A stretch of 64,000 nucleotides of DNA, taken from the sequence record NC_047979.1; one strand, written 5' to 3'. Of this stretch, positions 17,795 to 55,737 are shown piece by piece; the first letter of the stretch is position 1, and the number at the start of each line of letters is the position of its first letter. A program made the position numbers and the translations under genes. The stretch is from Escherichia phage Gostya9. The notes beneath the pieces were generated by a model. The model was given only the letters and a program-made list of their open reading frames with translations, had not been told where the DNA came from and made no database searches.

Positions 17795-18205
17795 ATGACT
17801 ACTCCAACTCAGTGGACTGATGAACTGTTTGAAAAAATGTCTTCCGAATACGTTGCTCGTATGGAGCAATTCCCAGAGGATGAACGTCCGAGTGTTAGCA
17901 TGGAAATTGTTAGTGAAATTGCCCAGGAAAATGGTGTAACTCCGAACGGTTTTCGTATGAAGCTGACTAAAGCAGGTTTGTATATCAAGAAAGCTGCTGG
18001 CTCCGCTTCTAAATCTAGTGCATCTACTGGAGAAAAAGCTTCCGGTGGTTCTCGTACCTCCAAAGCCCAGGCCCATGCGGATCTTCGTTCAGCATTCTCT
18101 GATGCTGGCTTAGCACCAGATTTTCTGGATGATGCAATTATCGACAAACTGACTGGTAAAGCGGCTGCTCATCTGGCTGAAGCAATCCGAGCTATCACTA
18201 AGTAA
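17795..18205 (+). CDS. Hypothetical early protein (136 aa), optimal-codon rich
   Basis: aaggaaatataaaatATG RBS and start; codon usage resembles highly expressed E. coli genes. Confidence 0.6.
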   Translation: MTTPTQWTDELFEKMSSEYVARMEQFPEDERPSVSMEIVSEIAQENGVTPNGFRMKLTKAGLYIKKAAGSASKSSASTGEKASGGSRTSKAQAHADLRSAFSDAGLAPDFLDDAIIDKLTGKAAAHLAEAIRAITK

Positions 18206-18954: not shown

Positions 18955-19926
18955 ATGACTAATGTAAAAGAATTTATTAAACGCTGTCAAGAAGCATATT
19001 ATCAGGGCATGTCTTTAATCTCTGATGAGGAGTATGATCGCCTGGTAAAACGCTTCCCGTTAGAGGAAGAGATCGGGCCTAAGGGTGATATTCCACACCT
19101 ATATCGTATGTATTCTTTACAGAAAGTTTATTATAATCGTGGAGATAAACCCCCATTTGACCCGTTAGGTCAAGTAGAAACTGATAAGTTAGATGGTTGT
19201 GCGATTTCCCTGCTATATATTAACGGTGAATTTGTTCAAGCACTAACTCGTGGTAATGGTATTCTGGGAAATGATGTCACAAGCAACGTAAGATTGCTGA
19301 ACATCCCTAAAAAGATTTCCCAAAAAGTACCTACTCAAATCACTGGTGAAGTTCTAATTACAAAAGAAGTAGAAAATAAACGTAACTTTGCCTCTGGTGC
19401 TATTAACCTCAAAGATAGTGATGATTTCATGCAACGTATCGGGGAAGGTGGTTTAATCTTCGTTGCATACGGTATCCAGTGTTCTGCTGAATCTGTAGGT
19501 ATTACAGAAGCGTATTTAAAAGATATGCTTTGGCTAGAGAATGAGAACTTCTTAACAGTTGTTAATGTGCGTTCCTTCTTTAAATGGATTCCGACGGACG
19601 GTAAAGTTGTTCGTATTAATGACAATAACAAATTCTTCCGTGAAGGTTGGACTAATAAATTTCCTCGTGGGGCATTCGCTATTAAAGAGGATGAAGAAGG
19701 CGAGATTACAACTCTTACTAAAGTTGAATGGCAGGTAGGGGCTTCTGGTAAAGTAACTCCAGTCGGTTATTTTGAACCAGTAATTATTGATGATGCTACA
19801 ATTGTTAAAGCGACTCTTAATAATGTTGATTATATTAACTCTCTCGATCTAGAGATCGGTTGCCAGATTCGAGTGATTCGTGCTGGTGGTGTAATCCCGT
19901 GCATAGTAGAGCGAGTTTATGATTAA
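18955..19926 (+). CDS. NAD-dependent DNA ligase, adenylation-domain subunit (LigA-like N-terminal half)
   Basis: Adenylation-site KxDG motif (ETDKLDGCAISL); ends after the OB-like region, with the remaining ligase domains in the next ORF. Confidence 0.75.
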   Translation: MTNVKEFIKRCQEAYYQGMSLISDEEYDRLVKRFPLEEEIGPKGDIPHLYRMYSLQKVYYNRGDKPPFDPLGQVETDKLDGCAISLLYINGEFVQALTRGNGILGNDVTSNVRLLNIPKKISQKVPTQITGEVLITKEVENKRNFASGAINLKDSDDFMQRIGEGGLIFVAYGIQCSAESVGITEAYLKDMLWLENENFLTVVNVRSFFKWIPTDGKVVRINDNNKFFREGWTNKFPRGAFAIKEDEEGEITTLTKVEWQVGASGKVTPVGYFEPVIIDDATIVKATLNNVDYINSLDLEIGCQIRVIRAGGVIPCIVERVYD

Positions 19927-19976: not shown

Positions 19977-20005
19977 TTGACATTTTCGCCGCTTAGGTAT
20001 ATACT
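19977..20005 (+). promoter_or_regulatory. Promoter TTGACA-17-TATACT inside the ligase split
   Basis: TTGACAttttcgccgcttaggtaTATACT. Confidence 0.4.
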
Positions 20006-20069: not shown

Positions 20070-20098
20070 TTGCTAAATGCTTAAATACTTGCTATAAT
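20070..20098 (+). promoter_or_regulatory. Early promoter TTGCTA-17-TATAAT inside the ligase split
   Basis: aaaattgtagTTGCTAaatgcttaaatacttgcTATAATatttatataaattgataaggaag. Confidence 0.5.
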
Positions 20099-20125: not shown

Positions 20126-20908
20126 TTGATGAAAATCGAAATTCCAACACAATGTCCCTCTTGTGGTTCTAAGCTAGATCTTGTCAACGGACAATTATTC
20201 TGTCGTAATAAGTCCAACTGTCCAGCGCAATCAAGTAAGTTAATTGAGAACTTCTGTACAAAAATGAAGTTAAAGGGCTTTGGCCCGAAAACTATTGAGA
20301 AGCTGGAGCTGACGAAGATTTCAGAACTATTTTACCTAACCGAAGAAGATTTGGTTAGAGCCGTGGGTAGCAAGGTTGCCGCTAAGTTAATTAGCGAATT
20401 AAATACTAAAGTTCGCGGAGACATTGACTTTGGTTCAGTTCTCGGTTCTTTAGGAATCCCTCTAATTGGAGAGGTTGCAGCAAAGAAATTATCCCAAAAT
20501 TGCACTAGCTTCCACGATGTGAAGGCTGACGGCAGGGCTGGAGAAAACTATAAAGCCTGGCTAAATTCCCCACAAGGCAAGGATGTTATCGAATTACCGT
20601 GGAAATTCACAACCGGTATTAAAGGTGCTAAAGCTGAGGTCAGCATTACTGATGGTCTAGTAGCCCAACCAAATGGAATCACGGTGTGTATTACCGGATC
20701 TTTGCAAGATTTTGCAAATAGAACGGATGCAACAAACTATCTAGAAGGTCTAGGGTATACTGTTAAAAAATCAGTTACCAAAGACGTTAAATACCTCATC
20801 TGTGAGGATGAATCTAAGCGTTCTTCCTCATCTTATAAGAAAGCCGAAACGAATGGGATAGAAATCCTGTCGATTAAAGAACTATTGGAGAAAAATAATA
20901 ATGTCTAA
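20126..20908 (+). CDS. NAD-dependent DNA ligase, Zn-finger/HhH/BRCT subunit (LigA-like C-terminal half)
   Basis: Zn finger CPSCGSKLDLVNGQLFCRNKSNC, HhH-like segments, C-terminal BRCT-like region; own aaggaag RBS. Confidence 0.7.
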   Translation: MMKIEIPTQCPSCGSKLDLVNGQLFCRNKSNCPAQSSKLIENFCTKMKLKGFGPKTIEKLELTKISELFYLTEEDLVRAVGSKVAAKLISELNTKVRGDIDFGSVLGSLGIPLIGEVAAKKLSQNCTSFHDVKADGRAGENYKAWLNSPQGKDVIELPWKFTTGIKGAKAEVSITDGLVAQPNGITVCITGSLQDFANRTDATNYLEGLGYTVKKSVTKDVKYLICEDESKRSSSSYKKAETNGIEILSIKELLEKNNNV

Positions 20909-21668
20909 ACTGAACTGGAACGTAGAAGGTGTAACCGAGTCTCTGAAAGCAAAAGCCACTGCTCTGGGTGTTGCTGTAATCTCTCAAGAACAAGTAGCTG
21001 CTATCGCTGCTGAACTGGCTGCTGAAACTGGCAAAGACGTTACCGCTCGCTCTGTTGGCTCTAAGCTGCGTAAAGAAGGTTTCGAAGTACAGAAAGCTAA
21101 CGAAGTACAGAAATCCCCGTGGACTCCTGAGCAGGAAGCTGAACTGGTTGATTTCCTGAACTCTCATGCTGGTCAGTATACTTATGCTGAAATCGCTGCT
21201 GCTGTAGCTGGTGGTCAATTTGGTGCTAAGCAGGTACAGGGTAAGATCCTGAGTCTGGAAATGACCGCTTCTGTTAAACCAACTGAAAAAGCTGCTGCTG
21301 TTCGTTCCTTCACTCCTGATGAAGAAACTGATTTTGTTAATCAGGTTGTTGCTGGTGCTACTATTGAAGCTATTGCTGCTCACTTCGGTCGTAATATCAA
21401 GCAGATCCGTGGTAAAGCTCTGAGTCTGCTTCGTGAAGGTCGTATCGCTGCTATGCCGGTACAGGAAACTTCAAGTGCTAAAACTCGTGAAGATCTGCTA
21501 GAAGGTCTGGATCTGGCTAACATGACTGTTGCTGAGATCGCTGAGAAAACTGGTAAGTCTGAGCGCGGTGTTAAATCTATGCTGTCTCGTCGTGGTCTGG
21601 TTGCTAAGGACTATGATGGTGCCGCTAAGCGTGCTAAACTGGATGCAAAAGCTGCGGCTGCTGAATAA
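20901..21668 (+). CDS. Hypothetical protein with four tandem about 45-aa HTH-like repeats, optimal-codon rich
   Basis: Repeats of T.(A/E)EIA....G.....(V/I).(G/S)K.LSL...G; E. coli-optimal codons (ctg, cgt, gct, ggt); followed by a strong terminator. Confidence 0.6.
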   Translation: MSKLNWNVEGVTESLKAKATALGVAVISQEQVAAIAAELAAETGKDVTARSVGSKLRKEGFEVQKANEVQKSPWTPEQEAELVDFLNSHAGQYTYAEIAAAVAGGQFGAKQVQGKILSLEMTASVKPTEKAAAVRSFTPDEETDFVNQVVAGATIEAIAAHFGRNIKQIRGKALSLLREGRIAAMPVQETSSAKTREDLLEGLDLANMTVAEIAEKTGKSERGVKSMLSRRGLVAKDYDGAAKRAKLDAKAAAAE

Positions 21669-21685
21669 TCTGGTAAATTAAACCT

Positions 21686-21717
21686 AAGGGGTGGGGGCTA
21701 TGCCTCTACCCCTTTTT
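21686..21717 (+). terminator. Rho-independent terminator
   Basis: aaggggtgg / ctacccctt stem followed by ttttt. Confidence 0.55.
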
Positions 21718-21750
21718 GCATTTAGAAGGCACGAAAGCGTGCAAAGGAGA

Positions 21751-23223
21751 ATGACCTTGTTTAACGTGCAAGCTGTAGTGTTGAAGATGCTTCTAGCTTC
21801 CGAACAGAAGCAAATAGCATTGGAAACATTCTCAAAACTGCATAAAGATCATTTTAATGACGCTTTCTCCTCAATTTACCAAGCCGTCCAGAATTATTAT
21901 AAAAAATATAACACAATGCCGTCCATTGACGCACTGATGCTTGAGGCTAATAGGAACGCCCGCCTTTCTCAAGCTCTAGTCGTTTTAGCTAACACTCAAA
22001 TTCCAGAAGTTAGCATGGAACAGGCACTTGAAGTCCTAGAGGCCGAGTATACACAGGATTTATTCCTGAAGCTTCTAGAAACAGACGTGCTTCAAGATTT
22101 AACAATGCTGGATCAGGGAGAAATTCTTAACCGAGTTGCCTCCCTTCACTTAAAATTAGAAGAGAAAGTAACGAATACTGGAAAAGTATTCAACGCAGAT
22201 AACATGCGTATTTTCCAGAGAGAAGAAGATACCAAACTGAACTTAATCGCTCTTGGTATTTGTAATGAGTTCGACGCTCAAATTGGTTTAGCTCGCACAG
22301 AAACGTTACTGCTTGGTGGTTGGCGTGGTACTGGTAAATCCATTATCTGTTCAAACATACAGGTTCAGCAATATTTGAATGGAGATATTGCTCCATACTT
22401 CTCAATTGAGATGAAAGAACATGAAGTATTTAGACGTAATCTAGCTATGTTAGCTGGTGTATCAGCACTAGCAATGCGTAATAATACTCTAGAAGGTGCA
22501 GCTCTGTTGAGATTAGCCAGAACTAGAGCTAGGATGTTTAACGGTGGTGAAGAGCTTTTCGATAACTTCGTTAAACAGTACACAATGGCTAAGATGAGTG
22601 ATTTCTACGATATGGAAAGTAAGCTAATAGAAGGATATGAGCTACATACTCCTATGATTATTGTTTATGATCCTGAGCTGTCTATTACAACAGTTGACGT
22701 AGAATTAAATAAATTAGTTGCTAGATATGGGGATAAAGTTACAGTAGCTTTACTAGACTATATTAACCAAACCCGACTTCCAGACTCTAAAACCATTGAT
22801 ATGTATGACTGGAAAGAACAGATGGTTGTTAGCTCGTCTTTCAAATCTATCTGCCAGAAACATAACGTGGCTGGTGTAGCTCCTTACCAGATCGATCAAG
22901 ATGGTAGAACACGTATGTCGAAGGGGATTCTTGATTCCGCAGACATGGCTGCTAATCTTAATGCTGCAAAAGCTGATAATGGTCAAGGTGCTATTATGTT
23001 TGACTTCGTTAAGACTCGGTCTTCTGATAGCGTGAAGTTTATGCCTAAAATGAACTGGGAAACCCTGCGGATGGATAACACTACCAACCTAGCAATGGAA
23101 GATATATCTCAAATGGAAGCTGAGTTCGTTATCCCTATTGAGAAGGATAAGCCGACTCAATCTAAACGTGCTAAGAAAGACAAAGCTGAAAATTCAACAG
23201 GTGAACAGGCCAGCGATATATGA
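21751..23223 (+). CDS. DnaB-like replicative helicase
   Basis: RecA-like core with Walker A GGWRGTGKS. Start moved to ATG 21751 (aaaggaga RBS) because the track start lies inside the upstream terminator; start uncertain. Confidence 0.6.
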   Translation: MTLFNVQAVVLKMLLASEQKQIALETFSKLHKDHFNDAFSSIYQAVQNYYKKYNTMPSIDALMLEANRNARLSQALVVLANTQIPEVSMEQALEVLEAEYTQDLFLKLLETDVLQDLTMLDQGEILNRVASLHLKLEEKVTNTGKVFNADNMRIFQREEDTKLNLIALGICNEFDAQIGLARTETLLLGGWRGTGKSIICSNIQVQQYLNGDIAPYFSIEMKEHEVFRRNLAMLAGVSALAMRNNTLEGAALLRLARTRARMFNGGEELFDNFVKQYTMAKMSDFYDMESKLIEGYELHTPMIIVYDPELSITTVDVELNKLVARYGDKVTVALLDYINQTRLPDSKTIDMYDWKEQMVVSSSFKSICQKHNVAGVAPYQIDQDGRTRMSKGILDSADMAANLNAAKADNGQGAIMFDFVKTRSSDSVKFMPKMNWETLRMDNTTNLAMEDISQMEAEFVIPIEKDKPTQSKRAKKDKAENSTGEQASDI

Positions 23224-23753
23224 TAACACAGGAAAGGCTAAAAGAGTTATTTGATTACTCCCCAGTTTCTGGGGAGTTTACTAGAAAAGTATCTAGAGGT
23301 AATCAGAAAGCTGGTAGTATAATAACCAGAAAAGACTCTAACGGTTATATAATTATTGGTATAGATGGCAAGGATTACAAAGCCCATCGGATGGCTTTTC
23401 TATTTATGGAAAATACATTGCCGGAAAAAGTAGACCATGTAAACAGAATACCTTTTGATAATAGGTGGTGTAATCTAAGAGACGCCACAGCTCAGGAAAA
23501 TAGTAGAAATAAAACCGCATGTAGTAAGTCTGGATATTTGGGAGTTGCTTGGGATATCGAAAAACAAAGATGGAGAGTTCAAGTAAGAGACTCTAATAGC
23601 ACTCTTAAAAATGGTGGCAGATTTAAGTATGAAGAGCTAGAGCTAGCTGTAAATTCAGCAAATATATTAAGGACTAAGTTACATGGAGAACGTGCTGTTA
23701 TAGAAATTTTTGATACATCTAATTATCCTTCACTGGAGGAGTTAAATTCATGA
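23220..23753 (+). CDS. HNH homing endonuclease with AP2-like DNA-binding domain
   Basis: HNH core VDHVNRIPFDNRWCNLR...ENSRN and AP2-like YLGVAWDIEKQRWRVQV; ATGA start/stop overlap with the helicase. Confidence 0.7.
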   Translation: MITQERLKELFDYSPVSGEFTRKVSRGNQKAGSIITRKDSNGYIIIGIDGKDYKAHRMAFLFMENTLPEKVDHVNRIPFDNRWCNLRDATAQENSRNKTACSKSGYLGVAWDIEKQRWRVQVRDSNSTLKNGGRFKYEELELAVNSANILRTKLHGERAVIEIFDTSNYPSLEELNS

Positions 23754-30406: not shown

Positions 30407-30691
30407 ATGCTTACAGAGCCTGATGCTCACCAATTATTGGTCGGTTCCTCATTCATTTTGAATGAATCAACAATAGTTGATAATCCAAATAAATTGTCTA
30501 ATAGACAACTGGCAGAATATCTAGGAATTTTAAGTCTACGAAATTATGCCGAATACAAGTTTACAAACGATCCTAGTTTGGACATACAATATGTTCCAGT
30601 ATGGATACCACGTTTAGTAATCGACACTAACCCACTAATCGCAATTAACAAATCGAAATTAATCTTTAAAGAGGAAATAAAATATGGCTAA
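30407..30691 (+). CDS. Hypothetical protein (94 aa)
   Basis: ORF downstream of the tandem promoters; no RBS or motif recognised. Confidence 0.35.
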   Translation: MLTEPDAHQLLVGSSFILNESTIVDNPNKLSNRQLAEYLGILSLRNYAEYKFTNDPSLDIQYVPVWIPRLVIDTNPLIAINKSKLIFKEEIKYG

Positions 30692-31457
30692 GTCTTGGGG
30701 CGAAACTACTGGCGGTTCTAACGATAAAATCGAATTCCTGAAGTTCAATAACGGTATCACTCGTGTTCGTATCGTTTCTGGTGTTCTTCCACGTTATGTT
30801 TATTGGCTGACTAATAAAGAAGGTGGCGTAGCTCCTTTCGAATGTCTCCGTTTTAACCGTGACAAAGAGAGCTTTGTTCGTGGTAAAGCTGATCCGGTTC
30901 ATGAGATGGGCTTCTTTGAGAAAGAGCTGGATAAAGATGGTAATCGCGTTCCACTGAAACCGAAGAAAAACTATATCGCTTTTGTTATCGACCGTTCTGA
31001 TAACAAACTGAAAGTAATGGAAGTCAAAGCTACTATTCTGAAAGGCATCCAGTCTATCATGAAACAGTTGAATCTGGCAACTCCGTTTGATATTGATATT
31101 TCTATCGAGAAAAAAGGCAAAGGTTTCGATACTGAGTATGATGTACAGCAGATTGCTGCTATGCAGTTCCAGATTAAGCTACAAGATCCTAACAGTGCAG
31201 AATCTAAGCAATATGCTGCAGATGTAGATCTGATTGGTGAAGCTATGTGTGATGAAGATGGCGACATCATTAAGTTCGAGAAAGTTCCTTCTCTGGAACA
31301 AACCTATCCGGTTCCTACCTATGAAGAGCAGAAAGAAGCAATTCAAGCCTTCATGGAAGGTCGTGAGAATAAAGATGATGATGCCAAGTCTGGTAATAGC
31401 AATGCTGGTTCCCAGAAAGGTATTGACCAAGAAGCTGCAAGCGATCTGGACGACTAA
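30684..31457 (+). CDS. Highly expressed early protein with acidic C-terminal tail, possible ssDNA-binding protein
   Basis: gaggaaataaaatATG RBS; optimal-codon bias; C-terminus ...SGNSNAGSQKGIDQEAASDLDD is acidic like SSB tails; followed by a terminator. Confidence 0.4.
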   Translation: MAKSWGETTGGSNDKIEFLKFNNGITRVRIVSGVLPRYVYWLTNKEGGVAPFECLRFNRDKESFVRGKADPVHEMGFFEKELDKDGNRVPLKPKKNYIAFVIDRSDNKLKVMEVKATILKGIQSIMKQLNLATPFDIDISIEKKGKGFDTEYDVQQIAAMQFQIKLQDPNSAESKQYAADVDLIGEAMCDEDGDIIKFEKVPSLEQTYPVPTYEEQKEAIQAFMEGRENKDDDAKSGNSNAGSQKGIDQEAASDLDD

Positions 31458-54360: not shown

Positions 54361-55737
54361 TTAAGATGCAGCGTAAGCACCGGATACAACGCCGTTCTCG
54401 AAGTAACGTTGCAGGTTAACACGCTGAGTAACGTAGTATGCGTCACGCTGTTTGCCAGCTTGGCGCTCACGTTCAACAGTAACAGCACGCTGACGTGGCA
54501 TCACGAAGTTATCTTTATAAACAATAACCGCGAACTCTTTACCAGCTGCTTTAGCTGGGAAGTACTCAGAAACTACAACCGGCAGACCATAAATACGACC
54601 AACCTGACCCTGCAGTTTAACAGCATCATTACCAACCTGAGCAACATCCTGCCATTCTTCGTCTTCCAGCAGATCGTAGTAAGCATCCATAGATACAATC
54701 AGTACCAGTTTGGACAGTTTCAGACCATGACGGCCCAGCTTACGACGCAGTTTAGAGATAGTTTTAGCAGTTACCAGAACAGAACCATCAGCTTTAGCTT
54801 CGGTAGTAACTTTAGCACTATCTTCACTAGCAAGAGTCAGCAGACCTTTCGGCTTACCGGAACCATCACCAGTCATGAAGGCTTCTTCAATAGAAACAGC
54901 GTGTGCTTCAATTAGACGCTTACGAAGCAGTGGCAGCAGGGAGAAGATTGCATCTTCTTCAGTTTCATCAGTAATGAAGGATTTAGCAGCCAGTTTGTAA
55001 GTACTGAAGTGGATTTCTGTAAGAGCGCCTGTAACTTCGCTACCAGTAGTATTGTCACTACCATAAGCAGAAGCAGCAACCCAAGTAGCTCTACCAGCAT
55101 CCGGTTCAACCAACATAGTAAGAATCTTACTGGACATCGGCAGTTCTTCGAACAGTGCGCCAACTACCAGCTCTTTCTGCAGGTCACGGATAATACGCTG
55201 AGAGAAAATAGTTTCATAGCTTTCACTAGAAACTTCTACAGAAGAGGACTGATTCACTGCTTTCAGGTGTTTTTGACCGTGTTCGGTTTCAAATACGCCT
55301 TTTTCCATTACATAGGACAACAGAACCAGTTTTTCTACTTCGTCTTCAAAGTTTTCCTGAGTACCATACAGTGCTTTAGCAACACTATTACCAACGAAGG
55401 AACGACCTTCACGAGCTGTTAGCAGGGATTTAATTTCGTCCTGAAGACCAACAATAGTTTCCTGTTGTTTTTCTACAGTTTGTGCAAACAGTTCTGCACT
55501 CTTCTTAGATTTTTCATCCAGGGACTTAACCAGTTCCAGAGCTTGTTCCAGTTTCTGACGATCTTCGCCAACTGCTTTAGAAACCAGGGCATTCATACGA
55601 GCCAGTTCTTTTTCTTCCTGCTCTTTACGCATACGTTCAGCTTCCTGAGCTTTCTGAGCAGCGGTCAGACCTTCCAGAGATTTAGCCAGATCACCCAGAC
55701 CAAGTTCTTCTTTCAGCTTATTAATATCAATAGTCAT
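54361..55737 (-). CDS. Major capsid protein (HK97-fold, pb8-like)
   Basis: 458 aa directly downstream of the prohead protease; strong optimal-codon bias; followed by a terminator. Confidence 0.8.
   Translation of the reverse strand: MTIDINKLKEELGLGDLAKSLEGLTAAQKAQEAERMRKEQEEKELARMNALVSKAVGEDRQKLEQALELVKSLDEKSKKSAELFAQTVEKQQETIVGLQDEIKSLLTAREGRSFVGNSVAKALYGTQENFEDEVEKLVLLSYVMEKGVFETEHGQKHLKAVNQSSSVEVSSESYETIFSQRIIRDLQKELVVGALFEELPMSSKILTMLVEPDAGRATWVAASAYGSDNTTGSEVTGALTEIHFSTYKLAAKSFITDETEEDAIFSLLPLLRKRLIEAHAVSIEEAFMTGDGSGKPKGLLTLASEDSAKVTTEAKADGSVLVTAKTISKLRRKLGRHGLKLSKLVLIVSMDAYYDLLEDEEWQDVAQVGNDAVKLQGQVGRIYGLPVVVSEYFPAKAAGKEFAVIVYKDNFVMPRQRAVTVERERQAGKQRDAYYVTQRVNLQRYFENGVVSGAYAAS

What the first reader, a model, noticed from the sequence alone, without database searches (positions are those of the whole stretch)
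20901..21668. Highly expressed early protein made of four tandem HTH-like repeats
The 255-aa product contains four roughly 45-aa repeats of the form T.(A/E)EIA....G.....(V/I).(G/S)K.LSL...G. The gene is written almost entirely in E. coli-optimal codons, unlike its neighbours, and ends in a strong terminator. A multi-copy DNA-binding module made at high level early in infection suggests a nucleoid-remodelling or transcription-takeover factor.
Basis: seen in the sequence. Interest (0 to 1): 0.5.

Follow-up and report, generated by a model that had tools for sequence, protein, structure and literature searches.

The report
Phage T5 D5 DNA-binding protein gene
This is the long-known D5 gene of a T5-like phage, an abundant early double-stranded-DNA-binding protein needed for phage replication and late gene expression; the one addition here is that it consists of four tandem three-helix DNA-binding modules of the GcrA/sigma-region-4 type.

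Summary
ORF 20901-21668 (+) encodes a 255-aa protein made of four tandem helix-turn-helix modules. It has the strongest E. coli-type codon bias of 57 ORFs in the window. A 13-bp hairpin terminator follows it.

The gene is not new. It is D5 (T5.118) of the T5-like phages: 98-100% identical to annotated 'D5 protein/DNA-binding protein', PHROG 323 at E 1.7e-71, with ligB-D5-dnaB synteny kept out to Vibrio phages. Sources differ on its role: the title of the 1979 D5 paper (McCorquodale et al.) names replication and late gene expression, and one genome paper adds suppression of early genes. A 2026 preprint shows it is a 26-kDa monomer, toxic to E. coli, and the trigger of retron-Kva2.

What I add:
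- The modules keep GcrA's DNA-backbone contacts but not its base-reading residues.
- D5 lacks GcrA's sigma-binding domain.
- Codon bias and terminator are conserved in a Vibrio phage orthologue.

Most likely D5 coats phage DNA stoichiometrically. The host nucleoid is an unlikely target, because pre-early genes degrade host DNA first.

Verdict: already known, interest low to moderate.

The parts
19977..20005 (+). Candidate sigma-70 promoter (TTGACA-17-TATACT, 11/12) upstream of the ligB-D5 unit
   Evidence: Consensus scan only. The number of promoter-like sites in the region equals the shuffle expectation, so assigning this one to D5 is inference.
20070..20098 (+). Second candidate sigma-70 promoter (TTGCTA-17-TATAAT with an upstream TG), 28 nt before ligB
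   Evidence: sequence read. No stronger promoter-like site lies on the + strand between here and the D5 start.
20126..20908 (+). ligB (NAD-dependent DNA ligase small subunit). Its stop codon overlaps the D5 start by 8 nt (ATGTCTAA).
20887..20890 (+). GGAG Shine-Dalgarno core, 10 nt before the D5 ATG
   Evidence: Read from the sequence.
20901..21668 (+). D5 coding sequence (255 aa, 27.0 kDa, pI 6.8)
20910..21086 (+). Module 1 (aa 4-62). Three helices, with an 8-residue insertion (AAETGKDV) specific to the T5 subgroup. Recognition helix ARSVGSKLRK.
21114..21266 (+). Module 2 (aa 72-122): WTPEQEAELV...TYAEIAAAV...AKQVQGKILSLE
21303..21449 (+). Module 3 (aa 135-183): FTPDEETDFV...TIEAIAAHFGRNIKQIRGKALSLLREG
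21477..21611 (+). Module 4 (aa 193-237): MTVAEIAEKTGKSERGVKSMLSRRGL. This is the only stretch that passes a Pfam gathering score (Sigma70_r4_2, 29.7 vs 25.7 bits).
21612..21665 (+). Conserved C-terminal tail (from D237: D..GAAKRAKLDAK...), predicted as a single helix 240-254. Its role is unknown; a protein-protein contact is possible.
21686..21719 (+). Intrinsic terminator: 13-bp stem, 3-nt loop, then a T run
   Evidence: A hairpin followed by a T run also comes after D5 in Vibrio phage River4.

Best explanation
The gene is D5 (T5.118) of a Tequintavirus.

Shown by published sources. [quoted passage not shown] It is monomeric in solution.

Shown here. The protein is four tandem three-helix HTH modules joined by conserved 10-20-residue linkers, plus a conserved C-terminal helix. 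Each module is of the GcrA-DBD / sigma-region-4 type.

Inferred. Each module places its third helix in a DNA major groove in the way GcrA does.
- The backbone-contacting lysine (GcrA K39) is kept as K55, K115 and K172.
- The Ser/Thr N-cap of helix 2 is kept as S28, T94, T153 and T209.
- A basic residue sits at the GcrA N34 position (R50, K110, K167, R222).
- GcrA's base-reading residues R33 and I37 are not kept, so binding should have little or a different sequence preference.
- One monomer would span about four consecutive major grooves, roughly 40 bp.

Inferred. The extreme codon adaptation, above that of the major head protein and the SSB, fits a stoichiometric coat on phage DNA rather than a low-copy regulator. 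Coating would then affect replication and shift host sigma-70 RNA polymerase from early to late promoters.
For: Identity:
- 512 phage records match by megablast; the best are 98-99% identical and annotated 'D5 protein/DNA-binding protein'.
- PHROG 323 'transcriptional regulator, D5-like', E 1.7e-71, over residues 1-253.
- The ligA-ligB-D5-dnaB-primase-pol order is the same in DT571/2 and in Vibrio phage River4 at about 48% identity.
- tblastn finds 901 records; those listed are phage genomes of mostly 100-130 kb.

Architecture.

GcrA type:
- A profile of 34 repeat units finds GcrA as the best natural PDB sequence (E 1.7e-3 and 4.2e-3), aligned end to end.
- hhalign of that profile against the GcrA DBD gives 96.8% probability, E 2.3e-10.
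- GcrA's DNA contacts come from PMC5887438.

Abundance:
- Codon bias.
- The next most codon-adapted ORFs are the major head protein, the SSB and the D3 DNA-binding protein.
- The River4 orthologue also has the lowest Nc of 13 neighbouring genes, plus a terminator-like hairpin and T run.
- D5 was abundant in phiR2-01 particle preparations.

Biochemistry: D5 is a 26-kDa monomer by mass photometry, toxic on its own, and is reported to act on the retron by binding the msDNA stem-loop, a binding mode inferred from an AlphaFold3 model. The escaper phage carries changes at G53, W74, V149 and G232; G53 and G232 fall in or next to recognition helices and V149 in helix 1 of module 3 (bioRxiv 10.64898/2026.07.11.737809).
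Against: - No D5-DNA structure exists, and no binding data were produced here.
- The docking mode is transferred from GcrA at 23% identity.
- Module 2 has net charge -4 and its recognition helix only +1, so it may not bind DNA.
- pTM 0.47 leaves the arrangement of the modules undefined.
- The whole protein is charge-neutral (pI 6.8), which is unusual for a DNA-coating protein.
- The classical papers on cooperative duplex binding are not in the library. Those properties rest on my memory and on titles in reference lists.
- The retron escaper carries W74* in D5. If that is a clonal mutation, D5 would not be essential.
Confidence: 0.7

Rival explanations
1. D5 is a sequence-specific activator of T5 late promoters that works like GcrA. 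It would ride on sigma-70 RNA polymerase and read promoter-proximal DNA with its HTH modules.
For: - The modules are GcrA-DBD-like.
- GcrA is a monomeric activator that binds sigma-70 region 2 and DNA upstream or downstream of the start site (PMC5887438).
- D5 is linked to late gene expression by the title of PMID 219226.
- The conserved C-terminal tail could be a polymerase contact.
- The mechanism of the T5 early-to-late switch is stated to be unknown (PMC7472727).
Against: - D5 has nothing matching GcrA's sigma-interacting domain; the PDB profile match covers GcrA residues 2-48 only.
- Pfam GcrA (PF07750) is not hit by D5.
- GcrA's base-reading residues R33 and I37 are not conserved.
- Codon bias above that of the capsid gene argues for a bulk protein rather than a regulator.
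Confidence: 0.15
2. D5 is an alternative sigma factor, as annotated in Salmonella phage Shivani ('RNA polymerase sigma factor').
For: Pfam Sigma70_r4_2 passes its gathering score (29.7 vs 25.7 bits) at residues 204-230. There is a weak Sigma70_r3 hit, E 4e-4. The Shivani annotation appears.
Against: - There is no region 2 match at E up to 10.
- The r4_2 match covers only profile positions 23-49, which is the bare HTH.
- The other three modules are the same fold repeated, not regions 2 and 3.
- All T5 gene classes are transcribed by sigma-70 holoenzyme (PMC7472727 abstract).
Confidence: 0.02
3. D5 is a single-stranded-DNA-binding protein, as annotated in Klebsiella phage vB_Kpn_3.
For: Only that annotation.
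Against: - The model is all-helical with no OB fold.
- The window has its own SSB at 30684-31457 (PHROG 1607, E 2.4e-106).
- Other annotators and the title of PMID 219226 call D5 simply a DNA-binding protein. That it prefers duplex DNA is my recollection of a 1979 J Biol Chem paper, which I could not read.
Confidence: 0.01
4. The primary role is counter-defence or protection of phage DNA ends and nicks, by shielding it from host or phage nucleases. Effects on replication and transcription would then be secondary.
For: - The predicted abundance and duplex binding fit a shield.
- D5 is sensed by a retron, as abundant phage DNA-binding proteins such as SSBs often are.
- Per the abstract of PMC10644984, T5 and BF23 DNA carries specific nicks.
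Against: No data tie D5 to nuclease protection. The documented links are to replication and late gene expression (title of PMID 219226).
Confidence: 0.1

Closest known systems
Bacteriophage T5 D5 protein (T5.118; PHROG 323 'transcriptional regulator, D5-like')
   Same: It is the same gene. Identity to annotated D5 genes is 98-100%, the length is the same 255 aa, and so are the neighbours (ligB upstream, dnaB-like helicase downstream). The residue numbering matches the 2026 retron-Kva2 preprint (G53, W74, V149, G232).
   Different: Nothing material. The public descriptions I could read say only 'contains an HTH motif'; the four-module GcrA-type architecture is not spelled out in them.
[quoted passage not shown]
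   Same: - A compact three-helix bundle of about 47 residues with the pattern W-T-x-E ... (S/T)xxxIA ... G-K ... (R/L)-G-(L/I).
- The backbone-contacting K39 and the helix-2 N-cap are conserved.
- GcrA binds the major groove as a monomer.
   Different: - D5 has four copies in tandem, where GcrA has one.
- D5 has no sigma-70-interacting C-terminal domain.
- The base- and methyl-reading residues R33, N34 and I37 are replaced.
- The Pfam GcrA model is not matched.
Sigma-70 region 4 (Pfam Sigma70_r4_2), which is also the closest fold to the GcrA DBD according to PMC5887438
   Same: Module 4 passes the Pfam gathering score, and the fold is the same tri-helical HTH.
   Different: D5 has no sigma regions 2 or 3 and no evidence of binding core polymerase.
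Myb/SANT repeat arrays (R2R3-MYB, c-Myb, Bdp1 SANT, Cdc5) and the Timeless DNA-binding repeats
   Different: Only the first of the three regularly spaced Myb tryptophans is present. The Pfam Myb scores are below the gathering threshold.
T5 A1 N-terminal domain
   Same: Another T5 protein domain reported as GcrA-DBD-like, and also a retron trigger (bioRxiv 10.1101/2022.08.27.505566).
   Different: It is a single copy fused to a different C-terminal part, it is pre-early, and it is not in this window. It was not compared directly here.

Membership tests
T5 D5 protein family (PHROG 323) | Full-length sequence match to the family profile | tested here: met
   E 1.7e-71, residues 1-253 on profile positions 3-270 of 319. 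98-100% identity to annotated D5 proteins.
T5 D5 protein family (PHROG 323) | Position in the early replication block, between ligB and the replicative helicase | tested here: met
   Window ORFs, DT571/2 and Vibrio phage River4.
T5 D5 protein family (PHROG 323) | [quoted passage not shown] | not testable with these tools
   The only sources available are literature: the title of PMID 219226 and the retron-Kva2 preprint.
GcrA cell-cycle regulator family (Pfam PF07750) | N-terminal three-helix DNA-binding domain | tested here: met
GcrA cell-cycle regulator family (Pfam PF07750) | C-terminal sigma-70 region-2 interacting domain joined by a long linker | tested here: not met
   The match to full-length GcrA (7ye1_G, 173 aa) covers residues 2-48 only. 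D5 is filled by the four modules.
GcrA cell-cycle regulator family (Pfam PF07750) | Match to the Pfam GcrA model | tested here: not met
   PF07750 is absent from the whole-protein scan at E up to 10. It is also absent from the first unit's own table and from the 25 most-matched families listed for the units.
GcrA cell-cycle regulator family (Pfam PF07750) | m6A/GANTC-reading residues R33, N34, I37 and G38 | tested here: not met
   The aligned D5 residues are A49/A109/I166/E221, R50/K110/K167/R222, G53/Q113/R170/K225 and S54/G114/G171/S226. Mapping comes, using the contacts.
Sigma-70 family | Region 2 (core binding and -10 recognition) | tested here: not met
   No Sigma70_r2 hit at E up to 10.
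Sigma-70 family | Region 4 HTH | tested here: met
   Sigma70_r4_2 scores 29.7 bits against a cut-off of 25.7, but only on profile positions 23-49 of 54.
Myb/SANT repeat proteins | Pfam Myb_DNA-binding above threshold, with three regularly spaced aromatic residues per repeat | tested here: inconclusive
   Myb_DNA-binding scores 18.0 bits against a 24.4 cut-off. 5-7 of 34 units give weak hits. Only the first Trp/Phe is conserved.
Single-stranded DNA-binding proteins (OB fold) | OB-fold beta barrel | tested here: not met
   The model is all-helical. The window's SSB is a different gene.

The most novel reading that the evidence does not exclude
D5 would be a phage-encoded 'chromatin' protein built from four sigma-region-4/GcrA-type DNA readers. 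By coating T5 DNA, and perhaps by competing with sigma region 4 for promoter DNA, it would itself be the missing early-to-late transcription switch of T5. Its conserved C-terminal helix would couple the coat to the polymerase or the replisome.
Probability: 0.15. Interest if true: 0.6.

Novelty: already known. Interest (0 to 1): 0.3.

Why it matters
The gene itself is textbook T5 biology, so finding it in a T5-like window is ordinary.

Two things give it some residual value. First, how T5 switches sigma-70 polymerase from early to late genes is still stated to be unknown (PMC7472727), D5 is one of the genes linked to late gene expression, and it has no solved structure. Second, D5 has just been reported as the trigger of a type IX retron.

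The four-module GcrA/sigma-4-type architecture provides testable residues: K55, K115, K172 and R222, and the S/T N-caps of helix 2. It predicts a footprint of about 40 bp per monomer. It also offers an explanation for the positions of the retron escape substitutions G53D and G232D.

Tried and rejected
- phmmer of the whole protein against PDB sequences gave only insignificant Myb hits.
- I checked whether D5 is the 'phage DNA-binding protein' that triggers DRT4. It is not; that is ORF55, in the deletable region.
- The DNA-binding protein in the 2026 T5 host-DNA-degradation preprint is A2, not D5.
- The classical papers (PMC353123, PMC355262) are not held.
- A literal search for the candidate promoter sequence, to test whether it is a named T5 early promoter, found nothing.
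- A search for other D5 literature returned mostly unrelated 'D5' genes.
- DNA-level repeats are minimal: one 30-nt pair at 73% identity and one 18-nt tandem. The duplications are therefore old.
- Model coordinates are not exposed, so I could not measure inter-module geometry or surface charge.
- The antisense ORF 20874-21383 (169 aa, Ser-rich) and the +2-frame ORF 21529-21681 are by-products of the GCT/CTG-rich coding strand, not genes.
- The sigma-factor and SSB annotations in public records were tested and rejected.

Full report
WHAT IS THERE

The window is a T5-like phage (Demerecviridae, Tequintavirus). ORF 20901-21668 on the + strand starts with ATG and encodes 255 aa, giving 27.0 kDa and pI 6.8. 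Upstream lie the two subunits of the NAD-dependent ligase (18955-19926 and 20126-20908). Downstream is a DnaB-like helicase, then an HNH endonuclease, a primase and a polymerase. The D5 start overlaps the ligB stop by 8 nt (ATGTCTAA), and a GGAG sits 10 nt before the ATG.

CHECK OF THE OBSERVATION

The repeats are real, but they are unequal.

- A self-alignment restricted to off-diagonal paths scores 76, against 38.6 +/- 7.9 for 100 shuffles. One shuffle reaches the observed value; the protein is 17.6% alanine, which inflates shuffles.
- I aligned 35 homologues of 50-81% identity (A1) and cut the alignment into quarters. Profile-profile comparison gives R2 vs R3 95.7% probability (E 9e-9, 56 columns), R3 vs R4 73%, and R1 vs R4 39%.
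- An HMM built from R2 and R3 units detects R1 in relatives that lack the eight-residue insertion of the T5 subgroup (E 5e-7 in P0103, 1.4e-5 in P0108). It detects R4 only weakly.
- AlphaFold2 with this alignment gives a confident model (mean pLDDT 91.8) of four three-helix modules plus a C-terminal helix. The pTM of 0.47 means each module is well defined but their mutual arrangement is not.
- The start-to-start period is 56-66 residues, and the conserved core is 45-50 residues.
- At the DNA level only a 30-nt pair (73% identity, 57 codons apart) survives, so the duplications are old.
- Copy number varies in the family. P0121 (309 aa) and P0192 (289 aa) each have five modules by my reading of their sequences.

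- CAI is 0.70, the highest of 57 ORFs. The median is 0.25, ligB is 0.24, the helicase 0.26 and the major head gene 0.63.
- The reference-free Nc is 31.1, the lowest of 15 ORFs tested.
- Codon counts: CTG 17/19, CGT 10/12, GGT 17/19, GCT 40/45, and only GTT/GTA for Val.

The terminator is a 13-bp stem with 8 G-C pairs, followed by a T run, at 21686-21714.

Both features are conserved in Vibrio phage River4, whose D5 is about 48% identical. There D5 has the lowest Nc (30.7) of 13 neighbouring replication genes and is followed by a terminator-like hairpin and T run.

WHAT IT IS

It is gene D5 (T5.118).

- Megablast finds 512 phage records. The best are 98-99% identical and annotated 'D5 protein/DNA-binding protein'.
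- PHROG 323, 'transcriptional regulator, D5-like', matches at E 1.7e-71 over the whole length.
- tblastn finds 901 records, and those listed are phage genomes of mostly 100-130 kb. Hosts are Escherichia, Salmonella, Klebsiella, Proteus, Vibrio, Aeromonas and Pectobacterium.
- A profile search of 1.84 billion cluster representatives finds only 534 at E <= 1e-3, of which about 55 are full-length.

On function:

- The defining paper is McCorquodale et al. [quoted passage not shown] I saw it only in a reference list; the paper itself is not held.
- From memory, not verified here: Rice, Ficht, Holladay and Moyer (J Biol Chem 1979) purified a protein of about 29 kDa that binds duplex DNA cooperatively. 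Ficht and Moyer (1980) found it in a transcription-replication complex.

A July 2026 preprint (10.64898/2026.07.11.737809) reports the following.

- T5 D5 has 255 residues.
- It is a 26-kDa monomer by mass photometry.
- It is toxic when expressed alone.
- It 'contains an HTH motif'.
- It triggers the type IX retron-Kva2, which the authors attribute to binding of the msDNA stem-loop on the basis of an AlphaFold3 model.
- An escaper phage carried G53D, W74*, V149I and G232D in D5.

In phiR2-01, D5 was among the most abundant proteins in particle preparations, although it is not a known virion component (PMC8624392).

WHAT THE MODULES ARE

- Below it come generic HTH and winged-HTH regulators, Myb/SANT domains, the Tc3 transposase HTH and the Timeless DNA-binding repeats.
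- A profile of 34 repeat units (A2) finds GcrA as the best natural sequence in the PDB (E 1.7e-3 and 4.2e-3), aligned from residue 2 to 48. The three better hits are designed coiled coils that share an 'EIAQQL' string, and I treat them as spurious.
- hhalign of A2 against the GcrA DBD gives 96.8% probability.
- According to its structure paper, the GcrA DBD is a compact three-helix bundle whose closest fold is sigma region 4. It binds the major groove as a monomer through helices 2 and 3 (PMC5887438). That accounts for the only Pfam hit of D5 above threshold, Sigma70_r4_2 on module 4.

Mapping GcrA's contacts onto D5:

- The backbone-contacting and functionally required K39 corresponds to the invariant K55, K115 and K172. 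Module 4 has M227 there, with K225 two residues before it.
- The Ser N-cap of helix 2 (S20) corresponds to S28, T94, T153 and T209.
- The position of N34 is always basic (R50, K110, K167, R222).
- R42 corresponds to K58 and R230, but to Ser in modules 2 and 3.
- The base- and methyl-reading R33 and I37 are not kept.
- The recognition-helix segments carry net charges of +3, +1, +5 and +4, while the whole protein is neutral.
- Of the retron escape substitutions, G53D falls at the I37-equivalent position of module 1 and G232D at the G44-equivalent position of module 4.

D5 is not a member of the GcrA family. It lacks the sigma-interacting domain, and Pfam GcrA is not matched.

HOW IT MOST LIKELY WORKS

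Shown: four GcrA/sigma-4-type HTH modules, strong and conserved codon adaptation, a dedicated terminator, and a fixed place in the replication gene block.

From the literature: DNA binding, a link to replication and late gene expression, and a monomer in solution.

Inferred:

- Each module docks in a major groove in the way GcrA does, with little or a different base specificity.
- One monomer spans about four grooves, roughly 40 bp.
- The protein is made in stoichiometric amounts and coats phage DNA. In this window its codon adaptation is higher than that of the major head protein, the SSB and the D3 DNA-binding protein, which are the next three.
- Coating then affects replication and promoter use.
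- The host nucleoid is an unlikely target. Pre-early genes degrade host DNA before the part of the genome that carries D5 enters the cell (abstract of 10.64898/2026.04.02.716235).

I put 0.7 on this overall. The identity is near certain. The coating mechanism is perhaps 0.55-0.6.

RIVALS

- A GcrA-like, polymerase-borne, sequence-specific activator of late promoters (0.15). It fits the fold and the link to late gene expression. Against it are the missing sigma-binding domain, the lost base-reading residues and the predicted abundance.
- A protective DNA shield (0.1).
- A sigma factor (0.02). There is no region 2.
- An SSB (0.01). The fold is all-helical, and the SSB is a different gene.

NOVELTY AND VERDICT

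The gene and its general function have been known since the 1970s, and it is annotated in hundreds of genomes.

I found no mention in the searchable literature of the four-fold GcrA-type modular architecture of D5. A search for GcrA together with phage T5 returned only the A1 N-terminal domain. This is an annotation-level refinement, not a new system. Interest is 0.3.

Noticed in passing
window 21691-21753: The helicase ORF is listed from GTG 21691, and its DT571/2 orthologue is annotated from the ATG that corresponds to 21700. Both starts lie inside the D5 terminator hairpin (21686-21714). An in-frame ATG at 21751, preceded by AAGGAG (21744-21749), is a more plausible start, so the public annotation probably over-extends the N-terminus by 17 codons.
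   Followed up: partly
window 23220-23753: An HNH endonuclease ORF (PHROG 99, E 4e-57) sits between the helicase and the primase, overlapping both by 4 nt. In DT571/2 the helicase and primase are adjacent, with no gene between them. It looks like a mobile homing-endonuclease insertion.
   Followed up: partly
window 17795-18205, 30684-31457, 54361-55737: After D5, the most codon-adapted ORFs are the major head protein (CAI 0.63), the SSB (0.54) and the D3 DNA-binding protein (0.53). In this window codon adaptation therefore picks out stoichiometric DNA-binding and structural proteins.
   Followed up: partly
window 21076-21111: An 18-nt tandem duplication (83% identity) in the linker between modules 1 and 2 encodes ...FEVQK ANEVQK. 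In the other family members this stretch reads differently.
   Followed up: no
proteins P0254, P0237, P0257: These are proteins of 447-569 aa with an N-terminal LuxR/GerE or sigma-region-4-type HTH part, followed by tandem units similar to the D5 modules (3-5 matched stretches; my reading of the sequences suggests three to five units). Their source organisms are unknown. They are possible cellular or viral regulators built on the same repeat.
   Followed up: partly
proteins P0250, P0253, P0255: These are long arrays (515-692 aa) of 6-8 Myb- or resolvase-HTH-like units that match the D5 profile at E 1e-14 to 1e-15. P0255 also gives a near-threshold Pfam GcrA hit (25.2 vs 26.9 bits). They link the D5 repeat to the wider Myb/HTH_23/GcrA group.
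   Followed up: partly
literature: bioRxiv 10.64898/2026.07.11.737809: The retron-Kva2 escaper T5.1 is reported with a premature stop at W74 of D5, together with three missense changes. From my memory of the classical genetics, D5 was defined by conditional-lethal amber mutants. Either the mutations come from a mixed population or D5 is dispensable under those conditions.
   Followed up: no
public records seen: Near-identical D5 sequences occur in short records labelled 'Listeria phage LM 4-14-1 / 4-11-1' and in partial proteins labelled Enterococcus faecalis (P0020, P0038). These are probably T5-like contamination or mislabelling. Other records name D5 'RNA polymerase sigma factor' (Shivani) or 'single stranded DNA-binding protein' (vB_Kpn_3).
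   Followed up: no
window 20874-21383 (-): A 169-aa Ser-rich antisense ORF lies opposite D5. It is a by-product of the GCT/CTG-rich sense strand and is not annotated in relatives.
   Followed up: partly
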